From the IMG/VR virus record IMGVR_UViG_2671180643_000014: a stretch of DNA of 16,682 nt, one strand, 5' to 3'. A program made the position numbers and the translations under genes. The notes beneath the pieces are model-generated. The model was not told the DNA's origin. It searched no databases and worked only from the letters and a program-made list of their open reading frames with translations. This document shows positions 2,285 through 3,327 of this stretch, in pieces. Each line of letters starts with the position of its first letter. Position 1 is the stretch's first letter. Source of the DNA: a virus (Duplodnaviria; Heunggongvirae; Uroviricota; Caudoviricetes).

Positions 2285-2464
2285 TTACTCTGGTTCTTTG
2301 GCCTTGCGCCGCTGGCGATATTCAACTTCTCGTTTTAATGCTGCAGTAACAAATTGCCCCGTACTTTCGCCAGGCATTTTTACCGCCTCAACATTGTTCA
2401 TAACTTCATGCGGAACCCTTGCCGCAACGGTTTGTGATTTTGCGTTTACTGCTTTTGTCGCCAT
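2285..2464 (-). CDS. Ribbon-helix-helix (Arc/CopG-like) DNA-binding protein, candidate island repressor
   Basis: 59-aa minus-strand ORF absent from the ORF track: MATKAVNAKSQTVAARVPHEVMNNVEAVKMPGESTGQFVTAALKREVEYRQRRKAKEPE. Strand-helix-helix pattern, GAGGGG Shine-Dalgarno 9 nt upstream, divergent from the operator-rich promoter region. Confidence 0.5.
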   Translation of the reverse strand: MATKAVNAKSQTVAARVPHEVMNNVEAVKMPGESTGQFVTAALKREVEYRQRRKAKEPE

Positions 2465-2514
2465 GTGGTGTACCCCTCATAAAAAACAAATGCAGTATGC
2501 AGGAAAAAAAATAA

Positions 2515-2566
2515 GTGTTCAACACTTGACGTGTTTAACACCTGGGTTTAAATTGGTGTTCAACAC
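2515..2566. promoter_or_regulatory. Divergent promoter region with three palindromic operators GTGTT(C/T)AACAC
   Basis: Operators at 2515-2525, 2531-2541 and 2556-2566 bracket a rightward -35 TTGACG (2526-2531) and -10 TAAATT (2549-2554). A leftward -35/-10 (TTGAAC / CATACT) is readable on the minus strand. Confidence 0.6.
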
Positions 2567-2663
2567 CTTGTTGGCGCAAGGTGCAGAAACGACGAAACCC
2601 GGCAGTGCGCTAACACTAACCGGGCTTCTAACCACCAACGATAGCGAAAGTATCGAGGTAGCT

Positions 2664-2867
2664 ATGAGAAATCATACCACACACCCGCAAGGGCGGGACT
2701 CGCACAACCTGAATAAATACATCTGGCGTTTTATCGCCCTGAGCACGGCACAACCGCGCGTGATTACCATTGAGGCCACCAGCGAACAGGAAGCACGCCA
2801 GCAATCCCCGGCTGGCTGCGTGATGGTATTCGCTGCCCGTATTCGTCAGGGGTCACATCATGCGTAA
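2664..2867 (+). CDS. Icd/Ash-like small protein (P4-type immunity-region protein), paralog 1
   Basis: 67 aa, GAGG Shine-Dalgarno 6 nt upstream. C-terminal block YIWRF...EATSEQEARQQ...FAARIRQG is shared with the gene at 3154-3327. The family assignment is from memory of P4-like prophage annotations. Confidence 0.5.
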   Translation: MRNHTTHPQGRDSHNLNKYIWRFIALSTAQPRVITIEATSEQEARQQSPAGCVMVFAARIRQGSHHA

Positions 2868-2989
2868 AAACCGCTTGCAAAAAATTATCACGGGGCTGTA
2901 TGCTTCCCCCGTCGCCCACATGGCGACCGGGTTTGACAGCCTGAATACATCTGGCGGACAGCCGCCCACATCCGATAAGCGGTTTTTTT
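2866..2989 (+). ncRNA. Candidate structured RNA or complex terminator between the two Icd-like genes
   Basis: An 11-bp perfect long-range stem (aaaaaccgctt at 2866-2876 pairs with aagcggttttt at 2977-2987) encloses three local hairpins and is followed by a 7-T run. Pairings were read by eye, not computed. Confidence 0.3.
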
Positions 2990-3103
2990 GTGTCCGTAAA
3001 CCTACCCATACCCGCATTATGGCGGGGCGTAACGGGGGAGCCTTTGTGCTCGCTGGTTTCCAGATGACCAGTCTGTCAACCCTGTTACGTCTCGCCACCA
3101 TGT

Positions 3104-3134
3104 TTGACAGCGTAGTAGCGAGACTCCTTAAAAT
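3104..3134 (+). promoter_or_regulatory. Candidate sigma70-type promoter for Icd-like paralog 2 and the downstream cassette
   Basis: -35 TTGACA at 3104-3109 and -10 TAAAAT at 3129-3134 (19-bp spacer, on the long side). GGGAG Shine-Dalgarno and ATG 3154 follow. Confidence 0.35.
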
Positions 3135-3153
3135 TCATCTGGGAGCCTTTCAC

Positions 3154-3327
3154 ATGGCTGTATCCGCACGCCCTTATTTTGTCTGGCGCTTTATGCAGTG
3201 CCAGGAAAAACAAACCTCACTCTTTACCGTCACGGCAGCAACAGAACGCGAAGCCCGCGCCCAGCTGCCGCACGCACATCTGATTTTTGTCGCCCGTATT
3301 CGTCAGGGGGAAACCTATGCACAATAA
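3154..3327 (+). CDS. Icd/Ash-like small protein, paralog 2
   Basis: 57 aa; YFVWRF...TAATEREARAQ...FVARIRQG aligns with paralog 1. Start chosen at the ATG with an upstream GGGAG; the in-frame ORF extends upstream to 2860, so the start is uncertain. Confidence 0.5.
   Translation: MAVSARPYFVWRFMQCQEKQTSLFTVTAATEREARAQLPHAHLIFVARIRQGETYAQ

What the first reader, a model, noticed from the sequence alone, without database searches (positions are those of the whole stretch)
2866..2989. Structured RNA-like element between the tandem Icd-like genes, reminiscent of P4 RNA-based immunity
An 11-bp perfect long-range stem closes a roughly 120-nt region containing three local GC hairpins and ends in a 7-U run, right after the first Icd-like stop codon. 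P4 places its small CI RNA immunity factor in the same operon as icd; I am stating that from memory. In addition, 2457-2468 (gtcgccatgtgg, spanning the RHH start codon) is the exact reverse complement of 2916-2927 inside the element. A single 12-nt match can occur by chance in a window this size, so this is a lead only.
Basis: partly seen in the sequence, partly recalled or inferred. Interest (0 to 1): 0.5.

Follow-up and report, generated by a model that had tools for sequence, protein, structure and literature searches.

The report
Leader and targets of C4 immunity RNA
The flagged stretch is the promoter and target-bearing leader (IsrK/seqA type, with a terminator) of a well-known phage P1/P4-style antisense-RNA immunity switch carried by an E. 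coli phage satellite. The regulatory C4/CI RNA itself lies just downstream, so the finding is real but ordinary.

Summary

The region is not a free-standing 120-nt RNA. Rfam places the C4 antisense RNA (P4 "CI") at 3015-3102, outside the finding. It places the c4-a1b1 target motif at 2898-2947 and an IsrK/seqA-like leader with a local terminator at 2911-2989. Bases 2923-3112 are 78% identical to phage P1 immI.

In 29 specificity variants from 81 related loci, the two C4 loops always match a1/b1 in the leader and a2/b2 over the ribosome site of the downstream Icd-like gene.

The long-range stem is not supported:
- Its 3' arm is the invariant terminator half.
- Its 5' arm overlaps the stop of icd1, the start of a nested long ORF, and the -35 of a conserved internal promoter.
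- Natural variants break it without compensation.

The 12-nt match is confined to one lineage, and at the RNA level the two sequences are identical rather than complementary.

Likely mechanism (inferred): C4 binding to b1 opens hairpin 3 and lets the terminator form, which is autoregulation. C4 binding to a2/b2 silences icd2 and the genes downstream.

C4/isrK hits in Gram-negative PICIs were reported in 2023. Interest is low.

The parts
2664..2867 (+). icd1, the upstream Icd-like gene (67 aa). Its stop codon TAA 2865-2867 overlaps the start of the long ORF (ATGCGTAA).
   Evidence: NCBIfam NF033153 phage_ICD_like, 69.8 bits. ORF list.
2860..3327 (+). Long ORF (155 aa) in frame with icd2. It runs through the promoter, leader, C4 and a2/b2, and is the positional analogue of P4 eta with icd2 as kil.
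   Evidence: The frame stays open for 460-590 nt in island-type and P4-like satellite loci but for 300 nt or less across this region in most P1-type phage loci. 1-nt indels are compensated. P4 eta spans isrK and C4 in the same way. No Pfam Phage_ASH hit and no BLASTP similarity of the N-terminal part to Eta.
2866..2876 (+). It consists of the icd1 stop, codons K-N-R-L of the long ORF, an A5 tract in the position of an UP element, and the first bases of the -35.
   Evidence: I4. Variants AAAAACAACTT (L048, L151) and AAAAACATGTT (L003) break the GC core without compensation. The upstream copies of the module have CCAG/CCTG/CCGC at the same place.
2875..2904 (+). Internal sigma-70 promoter (-35 TTGCAA 2875-2880, 18-nt spacer, -10 TATGCT 2899-2904). 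Predicted start is about 2911. It is homologous in position to P1 P1c4 (former P51b) and analogous to P4 PLE.
   Evidence: It aligns with the annotated P1c4 -35/-10. TTG..17-18 nt..TATnnT is kept in every lineage while the spacer varies. It was not called by the consensus scan because it matches only 8 of 12 positions. Promoter activity is inferred.
2911..2927 (+). Leader hairpin 1 (GTCGCC-CACAT-GGCGAC).
   Evidence: It is part of the Rfam c4-a1b1 and isrK alignments. Compensatory changes occur in 5 pairs across 26 leaders. GTCACC/GGTGAC occurs in L081 and L093.
2928..2943 (+). Leader hairpin 2. It presents target site a1 (TTTGACAG, 2932-2939) in its loop.
   Evidence: Rfam c4-a1b1. It is complementary to C4 3069-3082 (I3; duplex -18.9 kcal/mol, 0 of 500 shuffles as good). 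a1 = a2 = reverse complement of a' in all 29 variants.
2948..2954 (+). Target site b1 (CATCTGG). It is complementary to the C4 loop b', and its last two G's are the first two bases of hairpin 3.
   Evidence: About 20 different b sequences each match their own C4 loop and b2.
2953..2966 (+). Hairpin 3 (GGCGG-ACAG-CCGCC), the proposed anti-terminator. It ties up the CCGC that the terminator needs.
   Evidence: RNAalifold consensus. The outer pair covaries (A-U 12, U-A 8, G-C 2). In A3 the outer pair is A-U in 9 and G-C in 5 sequences.
2960..2989 (+). Local Rho-independent terminator: AGCCGC (2960-2965) / GCGGUU (2979-2984), then a U run to 2989. It is the counterpart of the IsrK terminator and, by position, of P4 t1.
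   Evidence: The isrK model aligns its terminator hairpin here. The hairpin is -6.5 kcal/mol. Its predicted probability rises from a median of 0.02-0.31 to 0.95-1.0 when b1 is occupied, in 40 of 40 distinct leaders. GCGGTWTTTTTGTGYCCGTAA is invariant in the seven aligned loci.
3015..3102 (+). C4 antisense RNA (P4 CI equivalent), with loop b' CCAGATG 3060-3066 and single-stranded a' CTGTCAA 3073-3079. This is the actual immunity RNA and lies outside the finding.
   Evidence: Rfam RF01695, 72.6 bits, E 8e-13, full-length model. The fold is -46.4 kcal/mol. It is homologous to P1 c4.
3103..3147 (+). Downstream targets a2 (TTTGACAG 3103-3110) and b2 (CATCTGG 3136-3142). The 13-nt b2 duplex 3135-3147 covers the Shine-Dalgarno GGGAG 3141-3145 of icd2.
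   Evidence: I5, I7. The b':b2 duplex is -22 kcal/mol. The layout matches the P1 annotation of a2/b2, 'repression of icd ant translation'.
3154..3327 (+). icd2 (57 aa), the Icd-like gene directly controlled by C4. It is the equivalent of P1 icd and P4 kil.
   Evidence: NCBIfam NF033153, 56 bits. The C-terminus of P4 Eta (Kil) and P1 Icd hit the same model.
2457..2468 (.). 12-nt reverse complement of 2916-2927, lying across the start codon of the minus-strand YlcI/YnfO (RHH) gene. Judged coincidental.
   Evidence: It is present only in window/L002/L073 and absent from the 19 other island variants. Chance expectation is about 0.12 per window.

Best explanation
The segment 2866-2989 is the front end of a P1/P4-type antisense-RNA immunity module carried by an E. 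coli phage satellite. The satellite has an integrase, AlpA, primase, SSB and capsid-to-terminase genes and is inserted in tqsA.

The segment contains three things:
(a) The junction between icd1 and a nested long ORF.
(b) An internal constitutive promoter at 2875-2904.
(c) A leader of about 79 nt (2911-2989) of the IsrK / P4-seqA / c4-a1b1 type. It has hairpin 1, hairpin 2 displaying target a1, target b1, hairpin 3, and a weak intrinsic terminator ending in U7.

The regulator itself, the C4 RNA (P4 'CI'), is made from the same transcript 26 nt further on, at 3015-3102.

Shown here:
- Family assignment.
- Homology to P1 immI.
- Exact three-way co-variation of the C4 loops with a1/b1 and a2/b2.
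- Covariation in hairpins 1 and 3.
- The overlap of b2 with the icd2 ribosome-binding site.

Inferred by analogy with P1 and P4:
- C4 pairs with a2/b2 and blocks icd2 translation. This makes transcription stop before the replication genes, which is the immunity of the satellite.
- C4 also pairs with a1/b1 on the nascent leader. Because b1 overlaps the 5' arm of hairpin 3, pairing frees CCGC to pair with the downstream GCGG. The terminator then forms in front of c4, giving negative autoregulation as reported for P4 t1.
- Transcripts from the upstream icd1 promoter that are translated through the long ORF would escape this control, as P4 eta does.

The 11-bp long-range stem and the 12-nt match to the RHH start are not needed for this mechanism and are not conserved.
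For: Family and homology:
- Rfam at gathering threshold finds C4 at 72.6 bits (3015-3102) and c4-a1b1 at 46.8 bits (2898-2947).
- An isrK-like match at 35.2 bits, E 8.7e-6, over 2911-2989 places the model's terminator on AGCCGC/GCGGUU plus the U run.
- Window 2923-3112 is 78% identical to P1 immI, where a1, b1, c4, a2, b2 and icd are annotated.
- P4 itself scores isrK 60.8 and C4 74.9 bits inside the eta ORF.

Targets and structure:
- In 77 parsed loci (of 81 unique) forming 29 (a', b') combinations, a1 = a2 = reverse complement of a', and both b1 and b2 match the reverse complement of b' over at least 7 nt (alignment).
- The b':b2 duplex is 13 bp, -22 kcal/mol, and covers the SD of icd2. The a':a1 duplex is -18.9 kcal/mol, with 0 of 500 shuffles as good.
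- Hairpins 1 and 3 show compensatory changes.

Terminator switch:
- In 40 distinct leaders the free RNA mostly favours hairpin 3 (median probability 0.68-0.90). Blocking only b1 gives the terminator hairpin at probability 0.90-1.0 in every one of them.

Promoter and coding context:
- The promoter elements align with the annotated P1 promoter P1c4 and keep TTG..TATnnT in all lineages.
- icd1, icd2, P1 Icd and the P4 Eta C-terminus all hit NF033153.
- The long ORF is open in almost all satellite loci and closed in most P1-type loci.

Literature:
- IsrK and C4 are the structural homologues of P4 seqA and CI (PMC3632133).
- Rfam C4 and isrK profiles hit several Gram-negative PICIs, and that paper also summarises the eta/kil/PLE logic (PMC10111431).
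- IsrK ends at its own terminator, with partial read-through into the operon (PMC4825925).
Against: - There is no expression or termination data for this locus. The promoter, transcription start, RNA ends and C4 processing are all inferred.
- c4-a1b1 passes its threshold by only 0.1 bit, and isrK is below its gathering score (35.2 against 50).
- The terminator hairpin is weak (4 G-C pairs, 13-nt loop, -6.5 kcal/mol). Its core never varies, so covariation cannot support it.
- For P1 itself the free leader is already predicted to form the terminator (probability 0.95), so the switch is not clean in every lineage.
- The P4 t1 terminator is a strong canonical hairpin without an obvious hairpin-3 equivalent, so the analogy is functional rather than structural.
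- The blocking test partly builds in its result, because b1 overlaps hairpin 3 by construction.
- The statement that CI RNA enhances termination at P4 t1 (Briani et al. 2000) is recalled from memory. The paper could not be read here.
Confidence: 0.8

Rival explanations
1. The terminated leader of about 79 nt (2911-2989) works mainly in trans, like Salmonella IsrK. As a short, stable RNA carrying a1/b1, it would act as a decoy for C4 or for the C4 segment inside read-through mRNA. This would free a2/b2 and switch on icd2 translation, making it an anti-immunity RNA rather than an autoregulatory attenuator.
For: The isrK model aligns over the whole leader, including the terminator. In Gifsy-1, short IsrK terminates at its own terminator and activates translation of the read-through isrK-orf45-anrP mRNA in trans by re-pairing alternative helices (PMC4825925). 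a1/b1 mimic a2/b2 exactly in all 29 variants, which is what a decoy needs.
Against: The isrK score is below the gathering threshold. In P4 the equivalent seqA site is described as promoting termination and establishment of immunity, not as relieving it (PMC3632133, PMC10111431). The overlap of b1 with hairpin 3 and the competing terminator has no role in a pure decoy model. The two models are not mutually exclusive.
Confidence: 0.25
2. The 11-bp long-range stem is functional in this island lineage. In transcripts arriving from the icd1 promoter it would close the whole leader into a strong, C4-independent terminator. That terminator would insulate the C4 module from upstream transcription and would be melted only when ribosomes, coupled from icd1, translate the long ORF across the 5' arm. 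This would be a translation-sensing gate.
For: The stem is perfect and strong. Transcripts from 2860 fold to -47.5 kcal/mol and keep the stem whether or not a1/b1 are blocked. The chance of such a repeat is about 0.9%. The 5' arm sits 4 nt after the ATG of the long ORF, which overlaps the icd1 stop. In P4, translation of eta is what prevents termination of upstream transcripts (PMC10111431). The diverged L077 lineage also keeps AAAAACCGCTTG.
Against: There is no covariation: 7 pairs are invariant, 0 are compensatory and 4 vary only by breaking. L048/L151 (CAAC) and L003 (CATG) lose the GC core while the 3' arm is unchanged. Most relatives have a U.U mismatch, leaving 9 bp. The variable triplet is simply the third codon after K-N in the long ORF (R, N, M, L or Q). 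The A5 tract and CTTG are explained by the UP/-35 region. A 100-nt insert between the arms makes an inefficient intrinsic terminator.
Confidence: 0.12
3. One reading: 2866-2989 is itself the small immunity RNA, a CI-like species of about 120 nt closed by the 11-bp stem. It would also pair with the RHH mRNA through the 12-nt match.
For: The fold is strong (z = -3.95). It is followed by a U run. The 12-nt match is real.
Against: The CI/C4 homologue is unambiguously at 3015-3102. The segment holds C4 targets, not C4. The 5' arm lies upstream of the conserved promoter. The long stem is not conserved. The 12-mer match is restricted to one lineage, and the RHH mRNA has the same sense sequence, so the two RNAs cannot pair there.
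Confidence: 0.03
4. There is no RNA function. The region is only the N-terminal coding part of a 155-aa Icd-like protein, as RefSeq/PGAP annotates it.
For: PGAP calls the long ORF an Icd-like CDS in all carriers. The frame is conserved and open in satellites.
Against: Rfam gives a 72.6-bit C4 hit. The three-way nucleotide covariation is meaningless for a protein. The same sequences occur in P1-type phages, where the frame is closed. The N-terminal part has no protein-family hit.
Confidence: 0.02

Closest known systems
Phage P1/P7 immI region (P51/P1c4 promoter - a1 b1 - c4 - a2 b2 - icd - ant)
   Same: Direct sequence homology: 78% identity over 2923-3112. The order of promoter, a1, b1, U-run, C4, a2, b2 and Icd-like gene is the same. 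The a site (TTGACAG) is identical. b2 lies next to or over the icd ribosome site.
   Different: The b specificity differs: CATCTGG/CCAGATG against P1 GTTAGTG/CACTAAC. There is no ant1/ant2 downstream; small ORFs and a primase follow instead. A long ORF is open through the region, which is not so in most P1-type loci. An Icd-like gene also lies upstream. The host element is an integrated satellite, not a plasmid prophage. The C1 operator was not looked for.
Satellite phage P4 immunity: PLE - seqA - t1 - cI (CI RNA) - seqC - kil, nested in eta
   Same: The logic and layout are the same. A promoter is internal to a long ORF. A target-bearing leader with a terminator precedes the antisense RNA. 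A second target lies downstream over the first translated gene, which is Icd-like (Kil). The host is a satellite with integrase, AlpA and primase. Rfam isrK and C4 both hit P4 (PMC10111431, PMC3632133).
   Different: Nucleotide similarity to P4 itself is low, because the window belongs to the P1-like c4-a1b1 sequence lineage. The P4 t1 is a strong canonical hairpin, whereas here the terminator is weak and competes with hairpin 3. The N-terminal part of the long ORF is not detectably related to Eta/Phage_ASH.
Salmonella Gifsy-1 IsrK (Rfam RF01394) with downstream STnc1160, orf45 and anrP
   Same: A leader RNA with two hairpins and its own Rho-independent terminator sits upstream of a processed C4-like RNA and a small ORF. 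Partial read-through creates the mRNA (PMC4825925). The isrK model aligns end to end with 2911-2989.
   Different: The score is below the family threshold (35.2 against 50). IsrK acts in trans as an activator of translation, which has not been tested here. The downstream cargo differs: an anti-repressor and AntQ there, Icd-like and replication genes here.
C4/isrK hits in Gram-negative PICIs and helper-embedded PICIs (Mageeney et al. 2023, PMC10111431)
   Same: It is the same class of host element (E. coli PICI-like satellites with integrase, AlpA, a Bro/Icd zone, primase and late genes) and the same two Rfam profiles.
   Different: That paper reports the hits in a single sentence. The anatomy of this locus, including the promoter, the hairpin 3/terminator competition and the specificity variants, is not described there as far as I could read.

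Membership tests
C4 antisense RNA (Rfam RF01695; P1 c4 / P4 CI) | Matches the covariance model at or above the gathering score over the full length | tested here: met
   72.6 bits against 45, model positions 1-87 of 87, at 3015-3102 on the + strand. This lies outside the finding's coordinates.
C4 antisense RNA (Rfam RF01695; P1 c4 / P4 CI) | Two exposed segments (a', b') complementary to target sites both upstream and downstream in the same transcript | tested here: met
   This holds in all 29 specificity variants.
C4 antisense RNA (Rfam RF01695; P1 c4 / P4 CI) | Processed out of a longer precursor (RNase P at the 5' end) and accumulates as an RNA of about 77 nt | not testable with these tools
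   Only the tRNA-like 3' ...GCCACCA end is visible in the sequence. That RNase P does the processing is recalled from the P1 literature.
c4-a1b1 motif (Rfam RF03163) | Matches the covariance model at or above the gathering score | tested here: met
   46.8 bits against 46.7, which is marginal, at 2898-2947.
c4-a1b1 motif (Rfam RF03163) | Lies upstream of a C4 RNA and carries sequences identical to a2/b2 and complementary to the C4 loops | tested here: met
isrK / P4 seqA leader (Rfam RF01394) | Matches the covariance model at or above the gathering score | tested here: not met
   35.2 bits against 50, E 8.7e-6, full-length alignment over 2911-2989. It is therefore described as IsrK-like, not filed as a member. 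P4 scores 60.8 bits.
isrK / P4 seqA leader (Rfam RF01394) | Two 5' hairpins followed by a Rho-independent terminator (hairpin plus U run) upstream of the C4-like RNA | tested here: met
   H1, H2, AGCCGC/GCGGUU and U7. Actual termination was not tested.
P4-type immunity with nested eta/kil genes | The first gene after the antisense RNA is a small Icd/Kil-like gene whose ribosome site is covered by the downstream target | tested here: met
   icd2 hits NF033153 at 56 bits, and the P4 Eta C-terminus hits the same model. The b2 duplex covers GGGAG 3141-3145.
P4-type immunity with nested eta/kil genes | A longer ORF in the same frame starts upstream of the internal promoter and spans the leader and the antisense RNA | tested here: met
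   2860-3327 is open. The same frame is open in satellite-type relatives and closed in most P1-type loci.
P4-type immunity with nested eta/kil genes | The long protein is an Eta/Ash-family (PF10554) homologue | tested here: not met
   No Pfam hit even at E <= 10. BLASTP against P4 Eta gives E 0.18.
P4-type immunity with nested eta/kil genes | The antisense RNA enhances termination at the leader terminator (t1) and downstream sites | not testable with these tools
   There is only a thermodynamic model. The P4 result is recalled from Briani et al. 2000, which is not held in the library.
P1 immI operon | A C1-controlled operator lies at the promoter, and the ant1/ant2 antirepressor genes follow icd | not tested
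   The annotation of the identical island in FORC_069 shows hypothetical genes and a primase after icd2, with no ant. The operator was not searched for.

The most novel reading that the evidence does not exclude
The leader is an RNA-sensing attenuator whose 'ligand' is the C4 RNA. Hairpin 3 would be an anti-terminator that overlaps target b1, so C4 pairing flips the leader into its terminator. This design is kept in all 40 leader variants examined, across about 20 immunity specificities. In this island lineage the extra 11-bp stem would add a second, C4-independent and translation-sensitive terminator. That terminator would insulate the module from the upstream icd1 unit, which could matter in relatives that carry two or three such modules in tandem.
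Probability: 0.25. Interest if true: 0.4.

Novelty: new member of a known kind. Interest (0 to 1): 0.2.

Why it matters
The main value is for annotation. In 122 of 5426 complete E. coli genomes this module is labelled only as 'Icd-like protein' CDS with no RNA feature. Yet it is the likely immunity switch that keeps these capsid-encoding satellites silent.

The comparative data also give a clean natural experiment. There are 29 combinations of two short recognition sequences that co-vary perfectly among the antisense RNA and its two targets. This could be used to predict cross-immunity between satellites and P1-like phage-plasmids, or to design orthogonal RNA repressors.

Nothing here overturns current understanding of P1/P4 immunity.

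Tried and rejected
1. Long-range stem as a conserved structure. Rejected: there is no compensatory change, natural variants break it, and the 5' arm lies in the promoter in P1 and in P4-like relatives.

2. The 12-nt match to the RHH start as an antisense target. Rejected: it is present only in the window's own lineage and the two RNAs have the same sense. A second 12-mer match at 8607-8618 in the capsid gene shows that such matches to the GC-rich, palindromic hairpin 1 do occur.

3. A third C4 site inside icd1 (2716-2728 is identical to 2944-2956, 13 nt). Rejected as a conserved target. L093 has the same icd1 sequence with a different b specificity, and L043, L067 and L125 have b = CATCTGG without the site. 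The sequence encodes the conserved Y-I-W-R of Icd.

4. The genome-contig scan with GCGGTWTTTTTGTGYCCGTAA. Most of the 25 hits were generic terminators in unrelated bacteria such as Marinobacter and Shewanella. At least seven (L010, L014, L015, L016, L025, L028, L031) looked like homologous loci; L015 and L031 were confirmed as isrK + C4 and L025/L028 as sRNA-Xcc1 type by Rfam.

5. My first metric for terminator formation was uninformative, because GCGG can also pair with a nearby CCG. It was replaced by specific pair probabilities.

6. Protein homology of the long ORF's N-terminus to P4 Eta or Pfam Phage_ASH. None was found.

7. Sabbattini et al. 1995 (PMC176756) is not held in the library. 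Briani et al. 2000 could not be read.

8. One script had an indexing bug, and its output was discarded.
Full report

Yes. AAAAACCGCTT (2866-2876) and AAGCGGTTTTT (2977-2987) are perfectly complementary (I4). The 3' arm runs into a U7 tract at 2983-2989. The 124-nt RNA folds to -47.1 kcal/mol with z = -3.95, and the fold contains three internal hairpins. An inverted repeat of this quality within 150 nt arises in about 0.9% of Markov-simulated sequences of the same composition. The 12-mer 2457-2468 is the exact reverse complement of 2916-2927. About 0.12 such matches are expected for the element against the whole window, and 8% of simulated windows have at least one.

**2. What is there?**

A scan of the window against Rfam at curated thresholds gave two hits:
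- the C4 antisense RNA (RF01695, 72.6 bits, E 8e-13, full-length) at 3015-3102;
- the 'a1, b1 targets of C4' motif (RF03163, 46.8 bits against a threshold of 46.7) at 2898-2947.

A permissive scan added an end-to-end but sub-threshold match to isrK (RF01394, 35.2 bits against 50, E 8.7e-6) over 2911-2989. In that alignment the model's terminator hairpin falls on AGCCGC (2960-2965) / GCGGUU (2979-2984) followed by the U run. The flagged segment holds its upstream targets and a terminator.

BLAST confirms common descent. Window 2923-3112 is 78% identical to the immI region of phage P1. The P1 record there annotates promoters P2c4/P1c4, a1, b1, the c4 RNA, a2, b2 and icd. Phage P4 shows the same pair of Rfam hits (isrK 60.8 bits, C4 74.9 bits) inside its long eta ORF.

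The two flanking genes, icd1 (2664-2867) and icd2 (3154-3327), both match NCBIfam NF033153 'Icd-like'. P1 Icd and the C-terminal (Kil) part of P4 Eta match the same model.

The host element is identical to an island in E. coli FORC_069 inserted in tqsA. That island carries an integrase, AlpA, a YlcI/YnfO gene, the two icd genes, a primase, SSB, PerC, and capsid, protease, portal, head-completion and terminase genes. This makes it a capsid-encoding PICI-type satellite.

**3. Anatomy of 2866-2989**

Aligning the window with six relatives and then with 81 unique related segments from IMG/VR and GTDB genomes resolves the segment into parts.

(i) 2866-2876, the 5' arm, consists of the icd1 stop codon, codons K-N-R-L of a long ORF that starts at 2860 (ATGCGTAA overlap), an A5 tract, and the first bases of a -35 element.

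(ii) 2875-2904 is a promoter (TTGCAA, 18-nt spacer, TATGCT). It aligns base for base with the annotated P1 promoter P1c4 (former P51b). TTG..17-18 nt..TATnnT is retained in every lineage while the spacer diverges. The predicted start near 2911 coincides with the first base of the isrK model.

(iii) The leader consists of:
- hairpin 1, 2911-2927;
- hairpin 2, 2928-2943, with a1 (2932-2939) in its loop;
- b1, 2948-2954;
- hairpin 3, 2953-2966;
- the terminator, ending in U7.

RNAalifold on 26 diverse leaders returns exactly hairpins 1, 2 and 3. Compensatory changes occur in five pairs of hairpin 1 and in the outer pair of hairpin 3.

**4. The targets are genuine**

I parsed 77 of the 81 unique segments and found 29 different combinations of the C4 loop sequences, made up of two a alleles and about 20 b sequences. 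In every one, a1 = a2 = the reverse complement of a', and both b1 and b2 match the reverse complement of b' over at least 7 nt.

In the window:
- b' CCAGATG (3060-3066) pairs with b1 CATCTGG (2948-2954) and with b2 (3136-3142).
- The b2 duplex extends to 13 bp (-22 kcal/mol) and covers the Shine-Dalgarno GGGAG of icd2.
- a' (3073-3079) pairs with a1 and a2 (3103-3110).

This is the P1 arrangement with a different specificity.

**5. The long-range stem**

Its 3' arm is the invariant terminator half. GCGGTWTTTTTGTGYCCGTAA is identical in all seven aligned loci. Its 5' arm is not conserved.
- In P1 and the P4-like relatives that position is the untranscribed -35 region.
- Among 15 island-type variants, 7 pairs never vary, none shows a compensatory change, and 4 vary only by breaking.
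- L048/L151 (AAAAACAAC) and L003 (AAAAACATG) lose the GC core.
- Most relatives have a U.U mismatch.

The variable triplet is the codon after K-N in the long ORF. It is R, N or M here, and L or Q in the upstream copies of the module. I conclude that the stem is a lineage-specific coincidence between a promoter/ORF-start sequence and a generic terminator half. It could act only on transcripts coming from upstream. I keep that possibility as a low-probability rival.

**6. The 12-nt match**

It occurs only in the window and its near-identical relatives L002 and L073. It is absent from the 19 other island variants, 18 of which carry the same hairpin 1 12-mer behind different upstream DNA. The RHH (YlcI/YnfO) gene is on the minus strand, so its mRNA contains CCACAUGGCGAC, the same sequence as the leader and not its complement. 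A second 12-mer match of hairpin 1, to the capsid gene (8607-8618), exists as well. I treat both as chance.

**7. Coding versus RNA**

The ORF 2860-3327 is in frame with icd2 and is what PGAP annotates as an 'Icd-like protein'. The frame is open for 460-590 nt through the leader and C4 in island-type and P4-like satellite loci. In most P1-type phage loci it is open for no more than 300 nt across the leader-C4 region, although a minority have 420-550-nt open frames. 1-nt indels in the b1 region and the terminator loop compensate each other.

This reproduces the nested eta/kil arrangement of P4. There, eta begins upstream of the internal promoter and is translated only from upstream transcripts, and its translation prevents termination (summarised in PMC10111431). 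The N-terminal part has no detectable similarity to Eta or to Pfam Phage_ASH. The resemblance is therefore architectural.

**8. How it most likely works**

Shown here: the family assignments, the homology, the co-varying target sites, the overlap of b2 with the ribosome site, and the covariation in hairpins 1 and 3.

Inferred from P1 and P4: C4 is cut out of the transcript made from the internal promoter. It pairs with a2/b2 to block icd2 translation, which leads to premature termination before the replication genes.

For the flagged leader I propose a C4-responsive attenuator. Hairpin 3 shares its first bases with b1 and holds the CCGC that the terminator needs.
- The free leader mostly prefers hairpin 3 in the 40 distinct leaders (median probability 0.68-0.90; terminator 0.02-0.31).
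- Occupying only the 7-8 nt of b1 gives the terminator hairpin at probability 0.90-1.0 in all 40.

This would give negative autoregulation of C4, as reported for terminator t1 of P4. That report is recalled from Briani et al. 2000, which I could not read.

Caveats:
- The terminator is weak.
- Its core never varies.
- P1 itself is predicted to form it without C4.
- The test is partly circular, because b1 overlaps hairpin 3.

The IsrK precedent (PMC4825925) suggests an alternative, or additional, trans-acting decoy role for the terminated leader.

**9. Comparison with the known, and novelty**

Barquist et al. (PMC3632133) already equate IsrK and C4 with P4 seqA and CI and speak of an 'IsrK-C4 immunity system'. 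Mageeney et al. (PMC10111431) state that the Rfam C4 and isrK profiles hit several Gram-negative PICIs.

The finding is therefore a new, unannotated member of a known kind. It is present in 122 of 5426 complete E. coli genomes, always chromosomal and always labelled only as Icd-like CDS. The hairpin 3/terminator competition and the breadth of specificity variants may not have been described, but they refine the known mechanism rather than change it.

**10. Verdict**

Interest is low (0.2).

Noticed in passing
L045 2958-3621; L048, L068, L086, L109; L077 845-1876: Related islands carry two, and L077 three, tandem leader-C4-icd modules about 350-480 nt apart. In L045 the two copies have different a and b specificities. 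The window has only the downstream module, so its 'tandem Icd-like genes' look like a two-module array in which the first module's RNA control was replaced.
   Followed up: partly
window 2591-2663, minus strand (promoter-like TGgTATGAT at 2679-2671): There is a sub-threshold SymR-like match (RF01809, 33.3 bits against 61, E 2.7e-4) antisense to the icd1 5' UTR and Shine-Dalgarno. It has an extended -10 just upstream, two hairpins and a U-rich tail (z = -4.1). This may be a cis-antisense RNA controlling icd1, or simply a structured icd1 leader on the plus strand.
   Followed up: partly
window 2515-2568: Three copies of the palindromic 13-mer GTGTTYAACACYT flank the promoter-like site 2526-2554 between the divergent YlcI/YnfO gene and icd1. 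They look like operators for a protein repressor.
   Followed up: no
window 2979-2999; L031 7041-7061; L025; L028: The 21-mer GCGGTWTTTTTGTGYCCGTAA between the leader terminator and C4 is identical in E. coli satellites, P1-type phages, a Desulfogranum japonicum locus (isrK 53.6 and C4 49.2 bits) and two sRNA-Xcc1-type loci. The role of the GUGUCCGUAA part is unknown. Because this 21-mer was the search pattern, its apparent universality is biased by ascertainment.
   Followed up: partly
window 2860-3327 and 122 E. coli genomes: RefSeq/PGAP annotates the long ORF across the leader and C4 as a 'host cell division inhibitor Icd-like protein' and annotates no RNA gene there.
   Followed up: yes
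window 2716-2728 and 2944-2956: An identical 13-mer, AATACATCTGGCG, occurs inside icd1 (codons Y-I-W-R) and at b1. It does not co-vary with C4 specificity in other islands. The b1/b' specificity of this lineage might have been copied from an icd coding sequence.
   Followed up: yes
81 unique loci from IMG/VR and GTDB (L001-L151): There are 29 combinations of C4 recognition loops (2 a alleles and about 20 b sequences), shared across P1-type phage-plasmids, P4-like satellites and PICI-type islands. The mixing suggests frequent exchange of immunity specificities between these element classes.
   Followed up: partly
window 8607-8618: A second 12-nt reverse-complement match to hairpin 1 (2909-2920) lies inside the major capsid gene. 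It is probably chance.
   Followed up: no
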